Shown here in pieces: positions 1,917 through 38,866 of a stretch of 64,000 bases of DNA. The DNA is taken from the NCBI RefSeq assembly GCF_988242995.1, contig NZ_OZ547043.1, one strand, 5' to 3'. Numbering within the stretch: the stretch's first letter is position 1; each line of letters opens with the position of its first letter. The translations under genes and the position numbers were made by a program. The notes below the pieces were generated by a model, which worked only from the letters and a program-made list of their open reading frames with translations, had not been told where the DNA came from and did not search any database.

Positions 1917-2339
1917 ATGAACACACTACGTTATTTTGATTTTGGAGCTGCCCGCCCCGTTTTGTTATTAATTGCCCGTATCGCCGTGGTCTTAATTTTC
2001 ATTATTTTTGGTTTTCCCAAAATGATGGGCTTTGACGGTACGGTCCAATATATGGCCTCGCTGGGCGCGCCGATGCCGATGCTGGCAGCGATTATTGCGG
2101 TAGTTATGGAAGTGCCCGCCGCGATATTAATCGTGCTTGGCTTTTTCACCCGTCCGCTGGCGGTGCTGTTTATTTTCTACACGCTGGGTACAGCGGTAAT
2201 TGGTCACCATTACTGGGATATGACCGGCGATGCGGTTGGGCCAAATATGATTAATTTCTGGAAGAATGTCAGTATCGCTGGCGCATTCCTGCTGTTGGCA
2301 ATTACCGGGCCGGGGGCAATTTCTCTCGATCGGCGTTAG
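1917..2339 (+). CDS. yphA: DoxX-family inner membrane protein
   Basis: Hydrophobic ORF; internal ATG at 1917 gives 140 aa, the length I recall for YphA; track ORF starts upstream at 1845. Confidence 0.8.
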
Positions 2340-2345
2340 GAAAGA

Positions 2346-2377
2346 TGCCGGATGCGGCGTGAACGCCTTATCCGGCA
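2346..2377. repeat. REP (repetitive extragenic palindromic) element
   Basis: tgccggatgcggcgtgaacgccttatccggca imperfect palindrome typical of E. coli REP units, in the yphA/yphB convergent gap. Confidence 0.8.
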
Positions 2378-2386
2378 TTTTATAAA

Positions 2387-6954: not shown

Positions 6955-7938
6955 TTAGGGCAGACCATCAACGTGCGTTGCCAGCCACTGTTTACCGTCT
7001 TCCGTTTTGGTATAGAGATCGATAGGCACCTGAATCACTTTTTCACCGTCGGCTTGTTTATTGATAACCTTCAAAGTTTGCGCGAAAACAGCATTGCCCA
7101 TTTTCTTACCGGAAATATCCACCACCGCTTTCAGCACCTGATTGTTTTCCAGCTCCTGAGCAATTTCAGTGGTCATATCCGAACCGAAAACAGCAATTTT
7201 TCCGGTCTGATTTTGATTACGTACCGCTTTTACCGCGCCGAGTGTCGCACCGCCCGATTCCCCCATAATGGCGTTGAGATCCGGCGTGGAGATAATTAGT
7301 TTTTCACCAACGGAAATCGCTTTATCTAAAACAGTCCCTTCCTGATTAGCGACAATTTGCGCGCCGGGAACACGGATTTTTAATACTTCTTCAAATCCTT
7401 TACGGCGCTGCACACAAACTTCAAAGGCTTCGCAATTGATGACGGCAATTTTCGGCTGGTCAATTTTGTTGGCAATAAAATAATCGGCGGCAGCGTTACC
7501 CAGTTTTTTACCAAATTCCAGCGGATCGCCGACCAGATACGCCGAGACATATTTATCGACGCCTTTTTGATTAATACAGGTGTTGTAGCAAATTACCGGA
7601 ATACCCGCTTCACTGGCGCGACGAACGGTACGGCTACTGCCATTTTCAGACACTGCCGATAAAATAATGGCATCGACATTACGCGCCACGAGGGTATCAA
7701 CAAAGGTACTTTCTTTCGAAATATCACCCTGGGCGTTAGTTTCAATTAACTGTACCTGTACTGAAGAATCTTTTGCCGCATCCTGAACGCCCTGACGCAC
7801 ACCAGCGTAATATCCCTGGGTATCAAGGTATATTGCGCCAATGGTCATTTCTTTATCCGCAGCCCTGGCAAATAGTGCGCTACCTAATAGCGTAGCCATT
7901 AATAATAGATTACGGGTTGTTCTCATTTTTTTAGGCAT
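6955..7938 (-). CDS. yphF: periplasmic sugar-binding protein of ABC transporter
   Basis: 327-aa ORF with N-terminal signal peptide (MRTTRNLLLMATLLGSALFARA). Confidence 0.88.
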   Translation of the reverse strand: MPKKMRTTRNLLLMATLLGSALFARAADKEMTIGAIYLDTQGYYAGVRQGVQDAAKDSSVQVQLIETNAQGDISKESTFVDTLVARNVDAIILSAVSENGSSRTVRRASEAGIPVICYNTCINQKGVDKYVSAYLVGDPLEFGKKLGNAAADYFIANKIDQPKIAVINCEAFEVCVQRRKGFEEVLKIRVPGAQIVANQEGTVLDKAISVGEKLIISTPDLNAIMGESGGATLGAVKAVRNQNQTGKIAVFGSDMTTEIAQELENNQVLKAVVDISGKKMGNAVFAQTLKVINKQADGEKVIQVPIDLYTKTEDGKQWLATHVDGLP

Positions 7939-8034
7939 AGTACCTCCTGTAGGGTTTTTATTTACAACGGCTTATTTTAATTATTTGAGCGTGAGCGGCA
8001 GCGCGTGCCGCTCAAATATTACAGTTAATAAGGT

Positions 8035-11000
8035 TTAGCGAACGCGGTTAAAAATAAAAGGCATCACGGTGGTGAATAATGCTGCTTTCGGCCAGGCCGG
8101 ATTAATCGCCGTCAATTCAGCGCGAGCAGATTCATATTGCGCAACCTCCCCTAGTCCCGCGGACGCCAGCATCGCCACCATCAGGCATTTTTCTTTATGC
8201 TGCTGTTGTAAATCGCCATACAGCGACAACAGGTCAGGTTGCGAGACGGCAAAGAAATCCGCTTCGATACTGGTTTTCGCCATCTCTTGCGCCCACAGTT
8301 TCATTTCACTAAACAGTTGCTGTGCGGTGTGTTGTTCGCCCAGCAGTCGCAGCGCCATTCCTTGCCAGAAGAGATAATCAACCGGCTGATCGTTGTAATA
8401 ACTGTGGATGTTAATGGTGCGATCGCCGGTCGCCGCCAGACGTAAACAACGCGTCGCTTCAGTTTCATCGCCCTGCGCGTTGGCGCATATCGCCTGCCAG
8501 AACCAGATGTCGTTATCAGTTTGCCCCGGTAAACGGCCTTCGCTTAAATTCTCCGGATAATGCAGCGCGGCATGAAGCAGTTCGCTGGCCTGCTGCGGCT
8601 CTCTGGCATCAAGATGCTGCCAGGCGCGTAATAACTGGTTGAGGATAAACTGACTGGTGATCTTCCCTTCCCCGCCTTCCCACGGGTGGAATTTGCGCGT
8701 GGCGAGAATGTCCGCCGCTTTGTCTGCCTGACCCGTGAGATGCCACAAATTGAGCAGTTCTGCGGTCATGTCGTCGCGTTTCAGCGCAATTTCCAGATTA
8801 TTTTCCAGACGCGCCAGTCGTTTCTCCGGTGTGGCTCCACTTAACTTATCCAGCAAATCCCGTTCGAAAAGCAGACGTGCATCCTGCGGCGCAAGCTGAT
8901 AAGCATTATCAAGATAACGCGCGGCCAGCTCATAATCGTGTTGCTTATTCCACGCATGGATCGCTAACCCGCGCCAACCGTCGGCAAACTCCGGCGACAT
9001 CTCTACGCAACGTTGCCATAAAGTAATGGCTTTGTTGTAGCTGCGCTTGTTGTAGTAGAAGCAGGCCAGTAAATGACGGGCAAACCAGCACTCTTCAATA
9101 CTCTCCAGCGCCGCCACTTCTTCCAGCGTATTCGGGAAACGGACAAACTGCGGGAAGACATCAATGGCTTTTGCGACCAGTTCGCCGCGTTCGGCTTTCG
9201 GCAGCAAGCTGGCTTGCAGGTAAAGCGGCAGCGTGCGCTGGCAGTCCAGTGCGTTCAGCATCTCTGCCGCCAGGGTGGGCATTCCCCAGTTAATCAGTTG
9301 CCCGGCGGTCATCAGGGCGTTAACGTCGCGTCCCTGACACAGACCGCGCCACTGCGCGAGGGCTGATTCGCTACGACCATCGAACCAGTTCAGCCACCAC
9401 AGAGTGGCGTTCAGCGGATAATCGCGCAGCAGTTTCTCGCGCTGCAAACGCGCGTTGTCCTGACGACCACTTAACACCAGCAGCAGATTATGCAGGCAAA
9501 GCACTTCCTGATTGGTTGGGCAGGCGCGAAGACTTTGTTGGCAAAAATCCAGACCAGCATCGAAGTGACCATTACGCGTCGCCAGTCGTGCCAGACCATA
9601 ATAGCCGCCTGCTTTACTATTGCCGCTCCAGACCGCACGCCAGAAATCCTCTTCGGCTTGTTGATATTGTCCCTGACGTTCGTAAGCACTGGCGCGAATC
9701 AAACTGGCCTGTCCGCACTGCGGATTTTTGTTCAGCGCATGTGCGCGTTTCAGCGCCTGAGTGGCATACGCCACCGCTTGCGGGAAATCGGCGCGGTTAT
9801 ATTCCAGCATCGCCAGCGCCAGGTTACAGCGATAATCCAGCGGATCCAGCGCCACGCCGCGCAGGTAGTAATCGAACGGTGAACGGCTGGCGTGATGATA
9901 TTGCTCCAGATGCTGACCGATAAACCAGGCTTCATCTGTACTGGTAATGTCTTGTGCTGCCAGTGGCGCTTTGGCGACGTCCGGCAACGGCAACTCTTGC
10001 GGCTGATGTTCCTGATAACTCAGTATGATATTGCCGTCGGCATCGGAGAGTTCAATGGTCAGCCTTTCAGGATTGATACCGTGCAACACGCCCTGGATGG
10101 CGGTCGCTGGTGTCAGGGCCACGGCATCATCGAGTAACGCGTTGCATTTGCCGATTTCGCGGATCGCCAGACGGTATCCTTTCAACGGAGAGATGGCATA
10201 CAGCCCCCACTCAATCCCCCGCTCACTACGCTGGAGTTTTATCACCGCATCGCGGGAGGCATTTTGCACCATGCCCAGAGAATGATAAGGCAGGAAATAC
10301 TGCTCGAAACGCTTCTCTTCGTACGCATCAAGCCAGGTAAAATCAGGCTGGTTATCGGCAAAAATACCGGTCATCAGTTCGATATACGGGCCGTTATTGT
10401 CGGTCAGACTCTTATCCCACGCCTGGCCAAATTCACTGTGTCCCCAACTCCACTGTTTTTTACCTGGCGCAATATGGTGGTTGGCAACGTGCAGCAAACC
10501 GCCATCTTCATCGTGACACCACGCGCCAACAAAATCGTACTGTGATTTTTCAGCCATATATGAGGTTGGAACAGGCACATTTTTATAGCGAGAAATGTCC
10601 ACTCCAGCGGAGTAGTCCACTTTGTAGTAAGTGCCGGTGGCGATGGGGAAAGCAGAGACGGCCCGTTTGCCGTGATCAAACACCGCAGTCACATCCGGTG
10701 GGAAAACGCTCTGATGCCCTTCACCCCCTTTCACTGCCGGGTTGGCCCACCACAAGAAATGACGCGGCGTGGCGTTGCCGTTATAGACGCGGCTGGCGAT
10801 TTCCAGCGCCGCCCGGTCAGGACGCAGGGTGAAACCTGTCATCACCTGTAAACCATGCATCGGCTCCGTTTCGCCTACCCACACCGTCTGTGCGCCGTCT
10901 TCATGGGCTTCGAGGGTGAAATCAACGGGCATAAAGGTGGTCGGGCGATGGTGTTGCGGCCAGTTAAACTCAATCCCGCCGGAGATCCACGGTCCCAGCA

Positions 11001-11316
11001 GCCCCACCAGCGCCGGTTTAATGACTTCATTGTGATAGACAAAATCGCGCTGTTTCACTTTATCCCACGCGCGATGCACCCGACCGCCCAGTTCCGGCAG
11101 GATCATCACTTTGATGTAGTCGTTTTCCAGCCACACCGCCTGCCAGGATTTCAGGGTTTTCTGCTCGCTCAGCGTATCGGTCACGCCGTAGGGATAAACC
11201 GCGCCGGACGATCCCTGATAAACGCGATTTTCCAGGAACATGGGATGTATATCCTGCGGCCCGGTTTCATAGGTCGGGATCTCAACGCGCTCTTGCCACA
11301 CTTTTACTGGAGTCAT
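8035..11316 (-). CDS. yphG: large two-domain protein: N-terminal ~450-aa domain of unknown function plus long C-terminal TPR-like helical repeat region
   Basis: Track ORF 8035-11409 starts at TTG; I prefer ATG at 11316 because it is preceded by GAGGG; alternative start 11409 cannot be excluded. Confidence 0.8.
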   Translation of the reverse strand: MTPVKVWQERVEIPTYETGPQDIHPMFLENRVYQGSSGAVYPYGVTDTLSEQKTLKSWQAVWLENDYIKVMILPELGGRVHRAWDKVKQRDFVYHNEVIKPALVGLLGPWISGGIEFNWPQHHRPTTFMPVDFTLEAHEDGAQTVWVGETEPMHGLQVMTGFTLRPDRAALEIASRVYNGNATPRHFLWWANPAVKGGEGHQSVFPPDVTAVFDHGKRAVSAFPIATGTYYKVDYSAGVDISRYKNVPVPTSYMAEKSQYDFVGAWCHDEDGGLLHVANHHIAPGKKQWSWGHSEFGQAWDKSLTDNNGPYIELMTGIFADNQPDFTWLDAYEEKRFEQYFLPYHSLGMVQNASRDAVIKLQRSERGIEWGLYAISPLKGYRLAIREIGKCNALLDDAVALTPATAIQGVLHGINPERLTIELSDADGNIILSYQEHQPQELPLPDVAKAPLAAQDITSTDEAWFIGQHLEQYHHASRSPFDYYLRGVALDPLDYRCNLALAMLEYNRADFPQAVAYATQALKRAHALNKNPQCGQASLIRASAYERQGQYQQAEEDFWRAVWSGNSKAGGYYGLARLATRNGHFDAGLDFCQQSLRACPTNQEVLCLHNLLLVLSGRQDNARLQREKLLRDYPLNATLWWLNWFDGRSESALAQWRGLCQGRDVNALMTAGQLINWGMPTLAAEMLNALDCQRTLPLYLQASLLPKAERGELVAKAIDVFPQFVRFPNTLEEVAALESIEECWFARHLLACFYYNKRSYNKAITLWQRCVEMSPEFADGWRGLAIHAWNKQHDYELAARYLDNAYQLAPQDARLLFERDLLDKLSGATPEKRLARLENNLEIALKRDDMTAELLNLWHLTGQADKAADILATRKFHPWEGGEGKITSQFILNQLLRAWQHLDAREPQQASELLHAALHYPENLSEGRLPGQTDNDIWFWQAICANAQGDETEATRCLRLAATGDRTINIHSYYNDQPVDYLFWQGMALRLLGEQHTAQQLFSEMKLWAQEMAKTSIEADFFAVSQPDLLSLYGDLQQQHKEKCLMVAMLASAGLGEVAQYESARAELTAINPAWPKAALFTTVMPFIFNRVR

Positions 11317-11433
11317 GGTGCCCTCAATATTAACAAGACATACTGAATTAAAAGATTTGTGGCAGTGTATTGAACAATCTGGCAATGTTTTCGCGGAATA
11401 ATCACGCAATTAACTAAACAAGGTTTAGTGAAG

Positions 11434-12642: not shown

Positions 12643-12670
12643 GAAAGGCTTCCCGAAGGAAGCCTTTTTT
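12643..12670 (+). terminator. intrinsic terminator after yphH (also abuts glyA 3' end)
   Basis: gaaaggcttcc-cgaa-ggaagccttttttc hairpin followed by T-run. Confidence 0.7.
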
Positions 12671-38620: not shown

Positions 38621-38866
38621 TATCTATCATTATAAGTCTACAGAATCTGAACATCGCATTATCTGTGTAGAAATGCCCATTTAACTGCCTGAAGAGTAAC
38701 CCAACGGCCTTTTTATTTCACCACCTAATCCTCCACCAGCCAGTAACTTCTCTTTTTCTCGCCGCCCTGCGTCAACGTGTTTAGCAACTGTAACAAATAT
38801 TAAAATAGCAGGTGTTTATCCGCACAACATGATGCTATGCTGACCAAACCATGTTTAGTAAATTAA

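What the first reader, a model, noticed from the sequence alone, without database searches (positions are those of the whole stretch)
7983..8016. GC-rich hairpin inside the yph cluster between yphG and the binding-protein gene yphF
The sequence tgagcggca-gcgcg-tgccgctca (7992-8014), flanked by tttgag/ctcaaa, sits in the 96-bp yphG-yphF gap. It could be an internal attenuator, or a stabilising 5' hairpin that gives yphF and downstream genes a different stoichiometry from yphG. That arrangement is common where binding proteins are needed in excess.
Basis: seen in the sequence. Interest (0 to 1): 0.3.

Follow-up and report, generated by a model that had tools for sequence, protein, structure and literature searches.

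The report
Conserved RNA hairpin between yphG and yphF
A real, evolutionarily conserved stem-loop sits in the mRNA between two genes of an uncharacterised E. coli sugar-uptake cluster; it is not a classical terminator and most likely marks a boundary for mRNA decay, which is a known and fairly ordinary kind of element.

Summary
The hairpin is real: a perfect 9-bp stem with a 5-nt loop at 7992-8014, in the 96-nt yphG-yphF gap. Both genes are on the minus strand, so the stem starts 20 nt after the yphG stop and ends 44 nt before the yphF Shine-Dalgarno.

It is not chance. The 7-bp core GAGCGGC/GCCGCTC starts exactly 21 nt after the yphG stop in 15 of 16 Enterobacteriaceae lineages. E. coli polymorphism falls in the loop and 3' flank, not the stem. 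One-sided changes are mostly G.U on the sense strand.

It is single-copy, matches no Rfam family, has no annotated feature in the gap and has no U-tract, so it is not a canonical attenuator.

They form a rival, equally stable helix found only in about a third of E. coli genomes.

Best reading: a protective stem-loop that uncouples yphG mRNA from yphFEDCB mRNA after RNase E cleavage. Which side it protects is unresolved, and no transcript-end data exist.

Side finding: 4 nt upstream, across the yphG stop, lies a second copy of a 23-bp quasi-palindrome that also abuts the yphH start. It is a candidate operator for the uncharacterised ROK regulator YphH, so an internal regulated promoter is possible.

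The parts
7992..8014 (-). Core stem-loop. 9-bp stem (7992-8000 with 8006-8014) and 5-nt loop (8001-8005). In the mRNA: UGAGCGGCA CGCGC UGCCGCUCA.
   Evidence: -15.2 to -15.9 kcal/mol. Conserved in 16 lineages. Exact hairpin plus 7 nt in 4212 of 5411 E. coli genomes; four of four sampled single mismatches are loop SNPs.
7982..8018 (-). Alternative, mutually exclusive helix (8009-8018 with 7982-7991, 10 bp). It exists only in the window-type allele.
   Evidence: I1; equal in energy to the core; pair probabilities about 0.5 against 0.3-0.4. Absent from the K-12 allele.
7987..7991 (-). Five-nucleotide allelic block just 3' of the stem in the mRNA. CGCTC in the window, TCACA/TCACT in K-12 and most E. 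coli.
   Evidence: Alignment A1. About 33% of genomes carry the window type and about 67% the K-12 type.
8015..8034 (-). 20-nt unpaired spacer between the yphG stop and the stem. It holds an RN|WUU-type site, AAU|AUU (8019-8015), 3 nt before the stem.
   Evidence: Sequence. The spacing is constant: the 7-mer starts 21 nt after the stop in 15 of 16 lineages. RNase E motif taken from PMC5927463.
8019..8042 (-). O2: second copy of the operator-like quasi-palindrome (TTCGCTAAACCTTATTAACTGTAA). It spans the yphG stop codon and ends 4 nt before the hairpin.
   Evidence: Weight-matrix (PWM) scans: 23.6 bits, second-best hit in 64 kb on both strands. In orthologous ~9-kb loci it scores 16.7-33.1 bits and is the best hit outside O1 and its reverse-strand image in the lineages that keep it.
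11409..11432 (-). O1: 23-bp quasi-palindrome TTCACTAAAC-CTT-GTTTAGTTAA (9 of 10 arm positions symmetric). It abuts the yphH start codon in the yphH-yphG divergent region.
   Evidence: (perfect 7+3+7 core at 11413-11429; conserved in 23 loci; 34.7 bits; palindrome 6-9 of 10 against 2.9 at random).
7974..7979 (-). -10-like hexamer TAAAAT (TAGAAT in K-12) in the AT-rich block 3' of the hairpin. No -35 partner.
   Evidence: Sequence. TAnnnT is kept in 12 of 14 aligned lineages (my reading of A3). Not called by the promoter scan.
7943..7947 (-). yphF Shine-Dalgarno GGAGG, 4 nt before the ATG at 7938-7936.
8035..11316 (-). yphG (protein with a DUF5107 domain). Stop codon at 8035-8037.
6955..7938 (-). 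yphF (periplasmic sugar-binding protein of the YphDEF ABC transporter).

Best explanation
The element is a structured RNA stem-loop in the yphG-yphF intercistronic region of a minus-strand transcript. It most likely acts after transcription as a protective structure that sets a decay boundary. It is not a terminator.

Proposed steps (inferred, not shown):
1. RNase E cuts one of the AU-rich unpaired flanks.
2. The roughly -16 kcal/mol hairpin stays on one fragment.
3. If the cut is 3' of the stem, in AAAUAAUUAAAAUAAG, the hairpin caps the 3' end of the yphG segment and blocks PNPase and RNase II. This is the malE-malF type.
4. If the cut is at AAU|AUU, 3 nt 5' of the stem, the hairpin becomes a near-terminal 5' stem-loop on the yphFEDCB segment. 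This is the papBA type, and it would favour the binding-protein gene.

Either way, yphG mRNA and transporter mRNA levels become uncoupled.

Shown here: the structure, its strand, its conservation and the lack of terminator features. Inferred: the cleavage, the protection and its direction.
For: - Sense-strand hairpin of -15 to -16 kcal/mol.
- The 7-bp core is nearly invariant in 16 lineages of about 10 genera while the loop varies in sequence and length. RNAalifold keeps it as the only extended helix conserved across the gap, beside a 3-bp CCU/AGG pairing in the Shine-Dalgarno context.
- Over the nine stem pairs, non-Watson-Crick cells are 6 G.U against 1 A.C. In the seven core pairs they are 3 against 0. 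So pairing is kept in the sense RNA but not in the antisense RNA.
- Outer pairs change U-A to C-G in two lineages, and pair 8 changes A-U to C-G in one.
- In 5411 E. coli genomes, 4212 have the exact hairpin plus 7 nt and 1191 differ at one position. All four sampled single differences are two distinct loop SNPs.
- The start is fixed at 21 nt after the yphG stop in 15 of 16 lineages. By inference this is just clear of a terminating ribosome.
- Both flanks are AU-rich and unpaired, with an RN|WUU-type site 3 nt upstream (motif from PMC5927463).
- No U-tract and no terminator call.
- The RNA-seq assembly of Li et al. 2013 makes yphG its own unit in all seven conditions. It places the 5' ends of the yphDEF unit inside the gap, at window 7986 and 7969.
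- Differential decay with 3' or 5' protective structures is common in E. coli operons. In ABC operons it stabilises the binding-protein gene.
Against: - No mapped 5' or 3' end at the hairpin. Term-seq lists none for yphG or yphF. Cappable-seq, SMRT-Cappable-seq and the decay study hold no entry. The cluster was probably silent in those conditions.
- The Li et al. boundaries are coverage-based at low expression. Their yphG unit already stops 235 nt before the stop codon.
- The covariation statistics are not significant, because the core is conserved in sequence rather than covarying (94 of 500 shuffles reach the score).
- Conservation of the stem sequence and of the 5' flank suggests an additional sequence-specific constraint.
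- The element is dispensable. Four lineages have a 26-33-nt gap without it.
- An operator-like DNA motif lies 4 nt away, and the gap resembles the yphH-yphG control region. This points to a DNA-level regulatory role for the region.
Confidence: 0.45

Rival explanations
1. Leaky intrinsic terminator or attenuator. The hairpin stops a fraction of RNA polymerases after yphG, so yphFEDCB receives less read-through transcription.
For: A GC-rich stem lies 20 nt after a stop codon. In one relative (Enterobacteriaceae RIT691) the orthologous hairpin is followed by GTTTTCGATG and passes the terminator scan. In two Citrobacter species the stem runs into TTTT or TTTCTT. The RNA-seq assembly separates yphG from yphDEF.
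Against: In Escherichia the 10 nt after the stem hold only 2 U (CGCUCAAAUA in the window, UCACAAAAUA in K-12). The scan does not call it on either strand in the window or in K-12, nor in Citrobacter. A U-tract is a defining requirement for E. coli intrinsic termination (established knowledge). No Term-seq 3' end was reported, though the genes may have been silent.
Confidence: 0.15
2. The hairpin is part of a DNA-level control region. The gap holds an internal, regulated promoter for yphFEDCB. O2 would be bound by YphH or another factor, and TA(A/G)AAT would be the -10. The GC palindrome would be either a promoter or spacer element, or an insulator between the yphG unit and that promoter.
For: O2 is a second copy of the quasi-palindrome that abuts yphH. 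In Yersiniaceae-like lineages the gap aligns with the yphH-yphG control region over more than 90 nt (z 3.5-4.7). A TAnnnT hexamer is kept in 12 of 14 lineages (A3). The predicted 5' ends of the yphDEF unit fall in the gap, one (window 7969) 5 nt after the hexamer. The scan also finds no consensus promoter in the yphH-yphG region, where promoters must exist, so a negative scan is uninformative.
Against: No -35 element is present and there is no promoter call. The spacing between the two 7-mers varies (6 or 7 nt), and the wobble pattern is G.U on one strand. Both fit an RNA helix better than a dimeric protein site. Similarity between the two gaps is only marginal in Enterobacteriaceae (z about 1-5). 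The predicted 5' ends lie downstream of the hairpin, so this model gives the hairpin itself no role.
Confidence: 0.2
3. Relic with no present function in Escherichia. It would be the remnant of an ancestral yphG terminator or control region, kept by low divergence.
For: It was lost entirely in four lineages without loss of the gene order. E. coli has also lost a second hairpin and about 44 nt that other genera keep. Covariation is not significant.
Against: The genera compared share only 66-77% identity over the last 398 residues of YphG, so neutral sites should be saturated. Yet 14 stem positions are almost invariant, while the loop, the 3' flank and the second hairpin diverge freely. E. coli SNPs avoid the stem.
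Confidence: 0.1
4. Long-range masking of the yphF ribosome-binding site. The conserved 5' flank (ACC..CUGUA) pairs with UACAG-GAGG at the yphF Shine-Dalgarno, the hairpin nucleates the fold, and ribosomes ending on yphG open it. This would be translational coupling.
For: The minimum-energy fold of the window gap pairs 5'-ACCUU...CUGUA with UACAGGAGGU. The CUGUA/UACAG helix can form in 87% of cells across 14 lineages.
Against: There is no covariation, and every departure breaks the pair. RNAalifold does not keep the helix. The 5' flank is better explained as the right arm of O2. The ACCUU/GAGGU part is specific to the window allele.
Confidence: 0.05

Closest known systems
malE-malF intercistronic protective hairpin (REP) and similar 3' protective structures in differentially decaying operons (PMC5927463)
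   Same: A GC-rich stem-loop without a U-tract, sitting between cistrons of a sugar ABC-transporter cluster. Stable enough to stall 3'-5' exonucleases, and followed by an AU-rich stretch suited to RNase E.
   Different: It is not a REP: one copy per genome, no REP consensus and no feature annotated in the gap. In mal the hairpin lies 3' of the binding-protein gene and protects it. Here the upstream gene is yphG (DUF5107 domain) and the binding-protein gene lies downstream.
papBA-type 5' stem-loop created by RNase E cleavage (Bricker and Belasco 1999, as summarised in PMC5927463)
   Same: A stable hairpin upstream of the gene expected to be needed in excess. An RN|WUU-type site in unpaired RNA lies 3 nt before the stem.
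   Different: No cleavage has been mapped. The 5' protective structures reported in E. coli K-12 lay inside the upstream coding region, not in a gap. No 3' protective structure was identified after yphF.
Rho-independent terminator or attenuator
   Same: A GC-rich hairpin a short distance after a stop codon.
   Different: There is no U-tract on either strand in Escherichia, and the consensus scan does not call it.
NagC/Mlc (ROK family) operators. This comparison concerns the neighbouring O1/O2 motif, not the hairpin.
   Same: A 23-bp quasi-palindrome with an odd centre. One copy lies in the control region of the ROK regulator gene itself, and there are two sites per locus.
   Different: Positions +/-5,6 are TA/TA, not the invariant TT/AA of NagC and Mlc. 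The two sites are 3.4 kb apart. Binding by YphH is untested.

Membership tests
Rho-independent (intrinsic) terminator | GC-rich stem-loop downstream of a gene end | tested here: met
   9-bp stem with 7 G-C pairs, 20 nt after the yphG stop.
Rho-independent (intrinsic) terminator | U-rich tract immediately 3' of the stem (the scan requires at least 5 T in 8) | tested here: not met
   Not called on either strand. Only 2 U in the 10 nt after the stem. Only the RIT691 orthologue passes.
Rho-independent (intrinsic) terminator | Transcript 3' ends mapped just after the stem | tested here: inconclusive
   No 3' end for yphG or yphF in the Term-seq tables. The cluster was probably not expressed.
REP / BIME dispersed extragenic palindromes | Member of a multi-copy family sharing the REP consensus | tested here: not met
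   One place per genome in 5411 E. coli genomes. The motif is unique in the window and in 536 kb of loci. No feature of any kind is annotated in the gap in K-12 RefSeq.
Intercistronic 3' protective structure (malE-malF type) | Stable stem-loop between cistrons on the sense transcript | tested here: met
   -15 to -16 kcal/mol on the sense strand. Conserved.
Intercistronic 3' protective structure (malE-malF type) | The upstream segment is longer-lived and ends at the structure | not testable with these tools
   Needs rifampicin decay and 3'-end mapping. yph is absent from the decay tables.
RNase E-generated 5' protective stem-loop (papBA type) | RNase E site in unpaired RNA closely upstream of a stable structure | tested here: inconclusive
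   An AAU|AUU match to RN|WUU lies 3 nt before the stem in the window and K-12 (motif). The +2 U is kept in the lineages of A2 by my reading, but position +1 varies. No cleavage data.
Rfam RNA families | Covariance-model match | tested here: not met
   No hit better than E = 1.3, and all were far below the gathering score. Nothing at gathering score in eight orthologous loci.
ROK-family (NagC/Mlc-like) operator, for O1/O2 | 23-bp quasi-palindrome around a central base | tested here: met
   O1 is symmetric at 9 of 10 arm positions in Escherichia and 6-9 of 10 elsewhere. O2 is 4-8 of 10. Random expectation is 2.9.
ROK-family (NagC/Mlc-like) operator, for O1/O2 | Invariant TT/AA at positions +/-5,6 | tested here: not met
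   O1 has TA at -6,-5 and TA at +5,+6 (sequence; rule from PMC4288165). So it is not a NagC or Mlc site. A YphH-specific site is still possible.
ROK-family (NagC/Mlc-like) operator, for O1/O2 | Bound by the cognate regulator | not testable with these tools
   YphH is uncharacterised.

The most novel reading that the evidence does not exclude
The hairpin is one half of a composite, regulated junction inside the yph cluster. The uncharacterised ROK regulator YphH would bind a duplicated operator (O2) that straddles the yphG stop codon, 4 nt from the hairpin. From there it would control entry into the transporter genes, either through an internal promoter derived from a duplication of the yphH-yphG control region or as a roadblock. 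The hairpin would define the RNA end of the yphG unit. If true, this gives the first operator for YphH and an example of a control region copied to an internal operon junction.
Probability: 0.2. Interest if true: 0.45.

Novelty: new member of a known kind. Interest (0 to 1): 0.25.

Why it matters
The yph cluster is one of the remaining uncharacterised sugar-utilisation loci of E. coli K-12. It comprises a ROK regulator, a protein with a DUF5107 domain, an ABC transporter, a dehydrogenase and an epimerase.

A conserved junction element shows that yphG and the transporter genes are probably not expressed in a fixed ratio. The neighbouring O1/O2 motif gives a concrete, testable binding site for YphH.

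The hairpin itself belongs to a well-known class, so its general interest is modest.

Tried and rejected
- Rfam, on the window gap at E up to 10 and on eight orthologous loci at gathering score: nothing.
- Dispersed repeat or REP: rejected. One copy per genome and unique in all DNA held.
- Canonical terminator on either strand: rejected for Escherichia.
- Consensus sigma-70 promoter in the gap: none found. The scan is uninformative, because it also finds none in the yphH-yphG region.
- Long-range pairing of the 5' flank with the yphF Shine-Dalgarno: possible, but without covariation, and not kept by RNAalifold.
- Paralogy of the whole gap with the yphH-yphG region: significant only for the O motif in Enterobacteriaceae, and over a longer stretch in Yersiniaceae-like lineages.
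- Published end-mapping data. Term-seq (PMC7815308), Cappable-seq (PMC4782308), SMRT-Cappable-seq (PMC6131387), operon decay (PMC5927463) and transcript architecture (PMC11481537) hold no entry for yphF or yphG. The Thomason dRNA-seq paper is not held.
- A 3' protective structure after yphF: local folding of the operon gives many GC-rich coding-region structures and no clear candidate.
- Literature on yphF, yphG and yphH: nothing on this gap. YphH is still uncharacterised.

Full report
**Observation.** The + strand at 7992-8014 reads TGAGCGGCA-GCGCG-TGCCGCTCA, a perfect 9-bp inverted repeat around a 5-nt loop. It lies in the 96-nt gap 7939-8034.

The open reading frames and the RefSeq annotation of near-identical E. 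coli genomes put yphG and yphF on the minus strand. The order is yphG, yphF, yphE, yphD, yphC, yphB, with yphH divergent. The transcript therefore carries UGAGCGGCA-CGCGC-UGCCGCUCA. The stem begins 20 nt after the yphG stop (8035-8037) and ends 44 nt before the yphF Shine-Dalgarno GGAGG (7947-7943).

The pattern occurs once in the window against 0.04 expected. The gap folds better than 195 of 200 shuffles. The hairpin alone is worth about -15 to -16 kcal/mol.

'ctca' already belongs to the 3' arm. The flanks form a second, mutually exclusive 10-bp helix, 7982-7991 with 8009-8018. In this allele that helix is as stable as the core.

**Variation within E. coli.** The locus is present in 5421 of 5426 complete genomes, and the 30-nt hairpin query hits only one place per genome.

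A 30-nt query covering the hairpin plus 7 nt is exact in 4212 of 5411 genomes and differs at one position in 1191. All four sampled one-mismatch genomes carry loop SNPs: CGCGC to UGCGC in BL21 and PD007, and to CGUGC in two others.

The five nucleotides just 3' of the stem come in two blocks. About a third of genomes, including the window, have CGCTC. The rest have TCACA or TCACT. Only CGCTC completes the competing helix. So polymorphism hits the loop and the flank and spares the stem.

**Conservation across genera.** A scan of species-representative genomes with YphF returned 57 loci. yphG lies directly upstream of yphF in the Enterobacterales loci. It does not in the alpha- and beta-proteobacterial ones.

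In 16 lineages the core GAGCGGC...GCCGCTC is present. These are Escherichia species, Citrobacter, Raoultella, Pluralibacter, Phytobacter, several 'Enterobacter' species, Entomohabitans and two unnamed Enterobacteriaceae. The 7-mer starts exactly 21 nt after the yphG stop in 15 of the 16.

The loop varies in sequence, with 6 or 7 nt between the 7-mers. RNAalifold over the full gaps keeps this hairpin as the only extended conserved helix, beside a 3-bp CCU/AGG pairing in the Shine-Dalgarno context.

Because the core is nearly invariant, formal covariation is weak and not significant against shuffles. The departures are still informative:
- Over the nine stem pairs there are 6 G.U cells against 1 A.C. 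In the seven core pairs the count is 3 against 0. This is what selection on the sense-strand RNA predicts, and not what a DNA palindrome or an antisense RNA predicts.
- The outer pair changes U-A to C-G in two lineages, and pair 8 changes A-U to C-G in one.

These genera share only 66-77% identity over the last 398 residues of YphG, so the conservation reflects constraint.

The element is nevertheless dispensable. Four lineages have a 26-33-nt gap with no hairpin. Yersiniaceae-like lineages carry a different hairpin at the same place. Most genera with gaps of about 131-193 nt also carry a second hairpin. Its sequence differs from species to species, and Escherichia has lost it.

**What it is not.**
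- It is not a canonical intrinsic terminator. The scan does not call it on either strand, and only 2 U occur in the 10 nt after the stem. Only the RIT691 orthologue passes the scan; Citrobacter and Rahnella do not.
- It is not a REP or other dispersed repeat.
- It matches no Rfam family.
- RefSeq annotates no feature in the gap.

**Published data.** The Term-seq tables list no 3' end at yphG or yphF. Cappable-seq, SMRT-Cappable-seq, the operon-decay study and a transcript-architecture study have no entry. The likely reason is that the cluster is silent in standard media.

The only hint is the RNA-seq assembly of Li et al. 2013. yphG is a unit of its own in all seven conditions. The predicted 5' ends of the yphDEF unit fall in the gap at positions equal to window 7986 and 7969, both downstream of the hairpin. 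These boundaries are coverage-based at low expression. Their yphG unit already ends 235 nt before the stop codon, so the evidence is weak.

**Mechanism.** I commit to a protective stem-loop that sets a decay boundary (confidence 0.45). Dar and Sorek (PMC5927463) showed that many E. coli operons are reshaped by differential decay in two ways:
- a 3' structure blocks exonucleases after a downstream cut (malE-malF);
- RNase E cuts at RN|WUU just upstream of a stable structure, which then protects the downstream segment (papBA).

In their ABC operons the stabilised gene was always the binding protein.

The anatomy here allows both. The 3' flank is AU-rich and unpaired. The 5' flank holds AAU|AUU 3 nt before the stem. 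The 3' version would favour yphG. I cannot decide between them.

A leaky terminator (0.15), a DNA-level role inside an internal promoter or operator region (0.2), a relic (0.1) and long-range masking of the yphF ribosome-binding site (0.05) remain as rivals.

**Side finding.** The conserved 5' flank of the hairpin is not anonymous spacer.

A 23-bp quasi-palindrome, TTCACTAAAC-CTT-GTTTAGTTAA, abuts the yphH start codon (O1, window 11409-11432). It is conserved in all 23 Enterobacterales loci examined.

I built a weight matrix (PWM) from these sites, leaving out the tested species. It finds a second copy (O2) across the yphG stop codon, at 16.7-33.1 bits. In the lineages that keep it, this is the best hit in each roughly 9-kb locus outside O1 and its reverse-strand image.

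In the 64-kb window, a matrix built without Escherichia gives:
- O1: 34.7 bits;
- O2 (8019-8042): 23.6 bits;
- the best unrelated site: 17.3 bits. This is the NadR-box-like sequence upstream of the ORF I take to be nadB.

O2 ends 4 nt before the hairpin. It is absent or degenerate in the four short-gap lineages and in two that keep the hairpin (L014, L015).

In Yersiniaceae-like lineages the yphG-yphF gap aligns with the yphH-yphG control region over more than 90 nt (z 3.5-4.7). In Enterobacteriaceae the similarity is limited to the motif.

The geometry, 23 bp with an odd centre, is that of NagC/Mlc operators. The invariant TT/AA at +/-5,6 is replaced by TA/TA. YphH, the third ROK regulator of E. 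coli, is uncharacterised.

This makes O1/O2 a candidate YphH operator pair. It also raises the possibility of an internal regulated promoter. A TAnnnT hexamer (7974-7979) is kept in 12 of 14 lineages, but it has no -35 partner. The promoter scan also fails in the yphH-yphG region, where promoters must exist, so it cannot decide this.

The hairpin is a new member of a known kind. Interest is low to moderate. The operator-like O1/O2 pair next to it is the more useful lead.

Noticed in passing
window 11409-11432 (O1) and 8019-8042 (O2), minus strand: A 23-bp quasi-palindrome, TTCACTAAAC-CTT-GTTTAGTTAA, abuts the yphH start codon. A second copy lies across the yphG stop codon. Both are conserved across Enterobacterales and are the two best weight-matrix hits in the 64-kb window. 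This is a candidate operator pair for the uncharacterised ROK regulator YphH.
   Followed up: partly
window 7987-7991: A block of five adjacent differences (CGCTC against TCACA) separates two common E. coli alleles in otherwise very similar sequence. The window version turns an imperfect inverted repeat into a perfect 10-bp one. That is the signature expected of a template-switch (quasi-palindrome) mutation. It creates a competing helix as stable as the core hairpin.
   Followed up: partly
L014, L016, L018-L020, L022-L024, L026, L029: the part of the yphG-yphF gap between the first hairpin and the yphF Shine-Dalgarno: Most genera with gaps of about 131-193 nt carry a second hairpin whose sequence differs in every species while the stem is kept. 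Between the two hairpins lies a conserved block, GATGTTTAGAATATGTGAAAT. Escherichia lacks the second hairpin and about 44 nt.
   Followed up: partly
L017, L021, L033, L034: In four lineages the yphG-yphF gap is only 26-33 nt. O2, the hairpin and the AT-rich block are all missing, and only the Shine-Dalgarno context (ACCCTACAGGAG-like) remains.
   Followed up: yes
L008 about 1445-1505 (E. coli 2018-05-5CC); L070 (E. coli P276M): In one strain IS1 is inserted inside the 3' arm of the hairpin (after GCCGC), and the 5' part of yphF is lost. In another strain the sequence upstream of the hairpin is rearranged and part of O2 is replaced, with the junction at the 5' edge of the stem. No gene is annotated there.
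   Followed up: partly
window 38840-38863: The O-motif matrix also picks up CTGACCAAACCATGTTTAGTAAAT, 13-36 nt upstream of a 540-aa ORF that starts [15 protein letters not shown]. From memory I take this ORF to be nadB. The sequence contains TGTTTA-N6-TAAACA, which from memory is the NadR box. It is unrelated to yph.
   Followed up: no
L067 11490-11513 (K-12; equivalent to window about 8060-8083): In K-12 the terminator scan calls a weak AU/GU-rich stem followed by TTTTATTTTT inside the last 16 codons of yphG. The T-run encodes ...PFIF.... It is not called in the window allele and is probably a by-product of coding sequence.
   Followed up: no
window 12644-12667: A perfect 10-bp hairpin, AAAGGCTTCC-CGAA-GGAAGCCTTT, lies after glyA. 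It corresponds to a strong Term-seq 3' end reported at K-12 2684070 (PMC7815308). It is an ordinary bidirectional-looking terminator between glyA and yphH.
   Followed up: no
window 2331-2380, minus strand: GCCGGAUAAGGCGUUCACGCCGCAUCCGGCA lies just after the end of yphB. From memory it looks like a REP element, at the 3' end of the cluster.
   Followed up: no
whole window; L028: The window is not identical to any complete E. coli genome: the best match is 98.8% over 601 nt. Its yphG-yphF gap differs by one base from that of Escherichia sp. E1V33.
   Followed up: no
window 8035-11409: The mechanical ORF for yphG starts at a TTG at 11409 (1124 aa). RefSeq annotates the ATG at 11316 (3282 nt). 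The extra 93 nt overlap the yphH-yphG control region, including O1.
   Followed up: no
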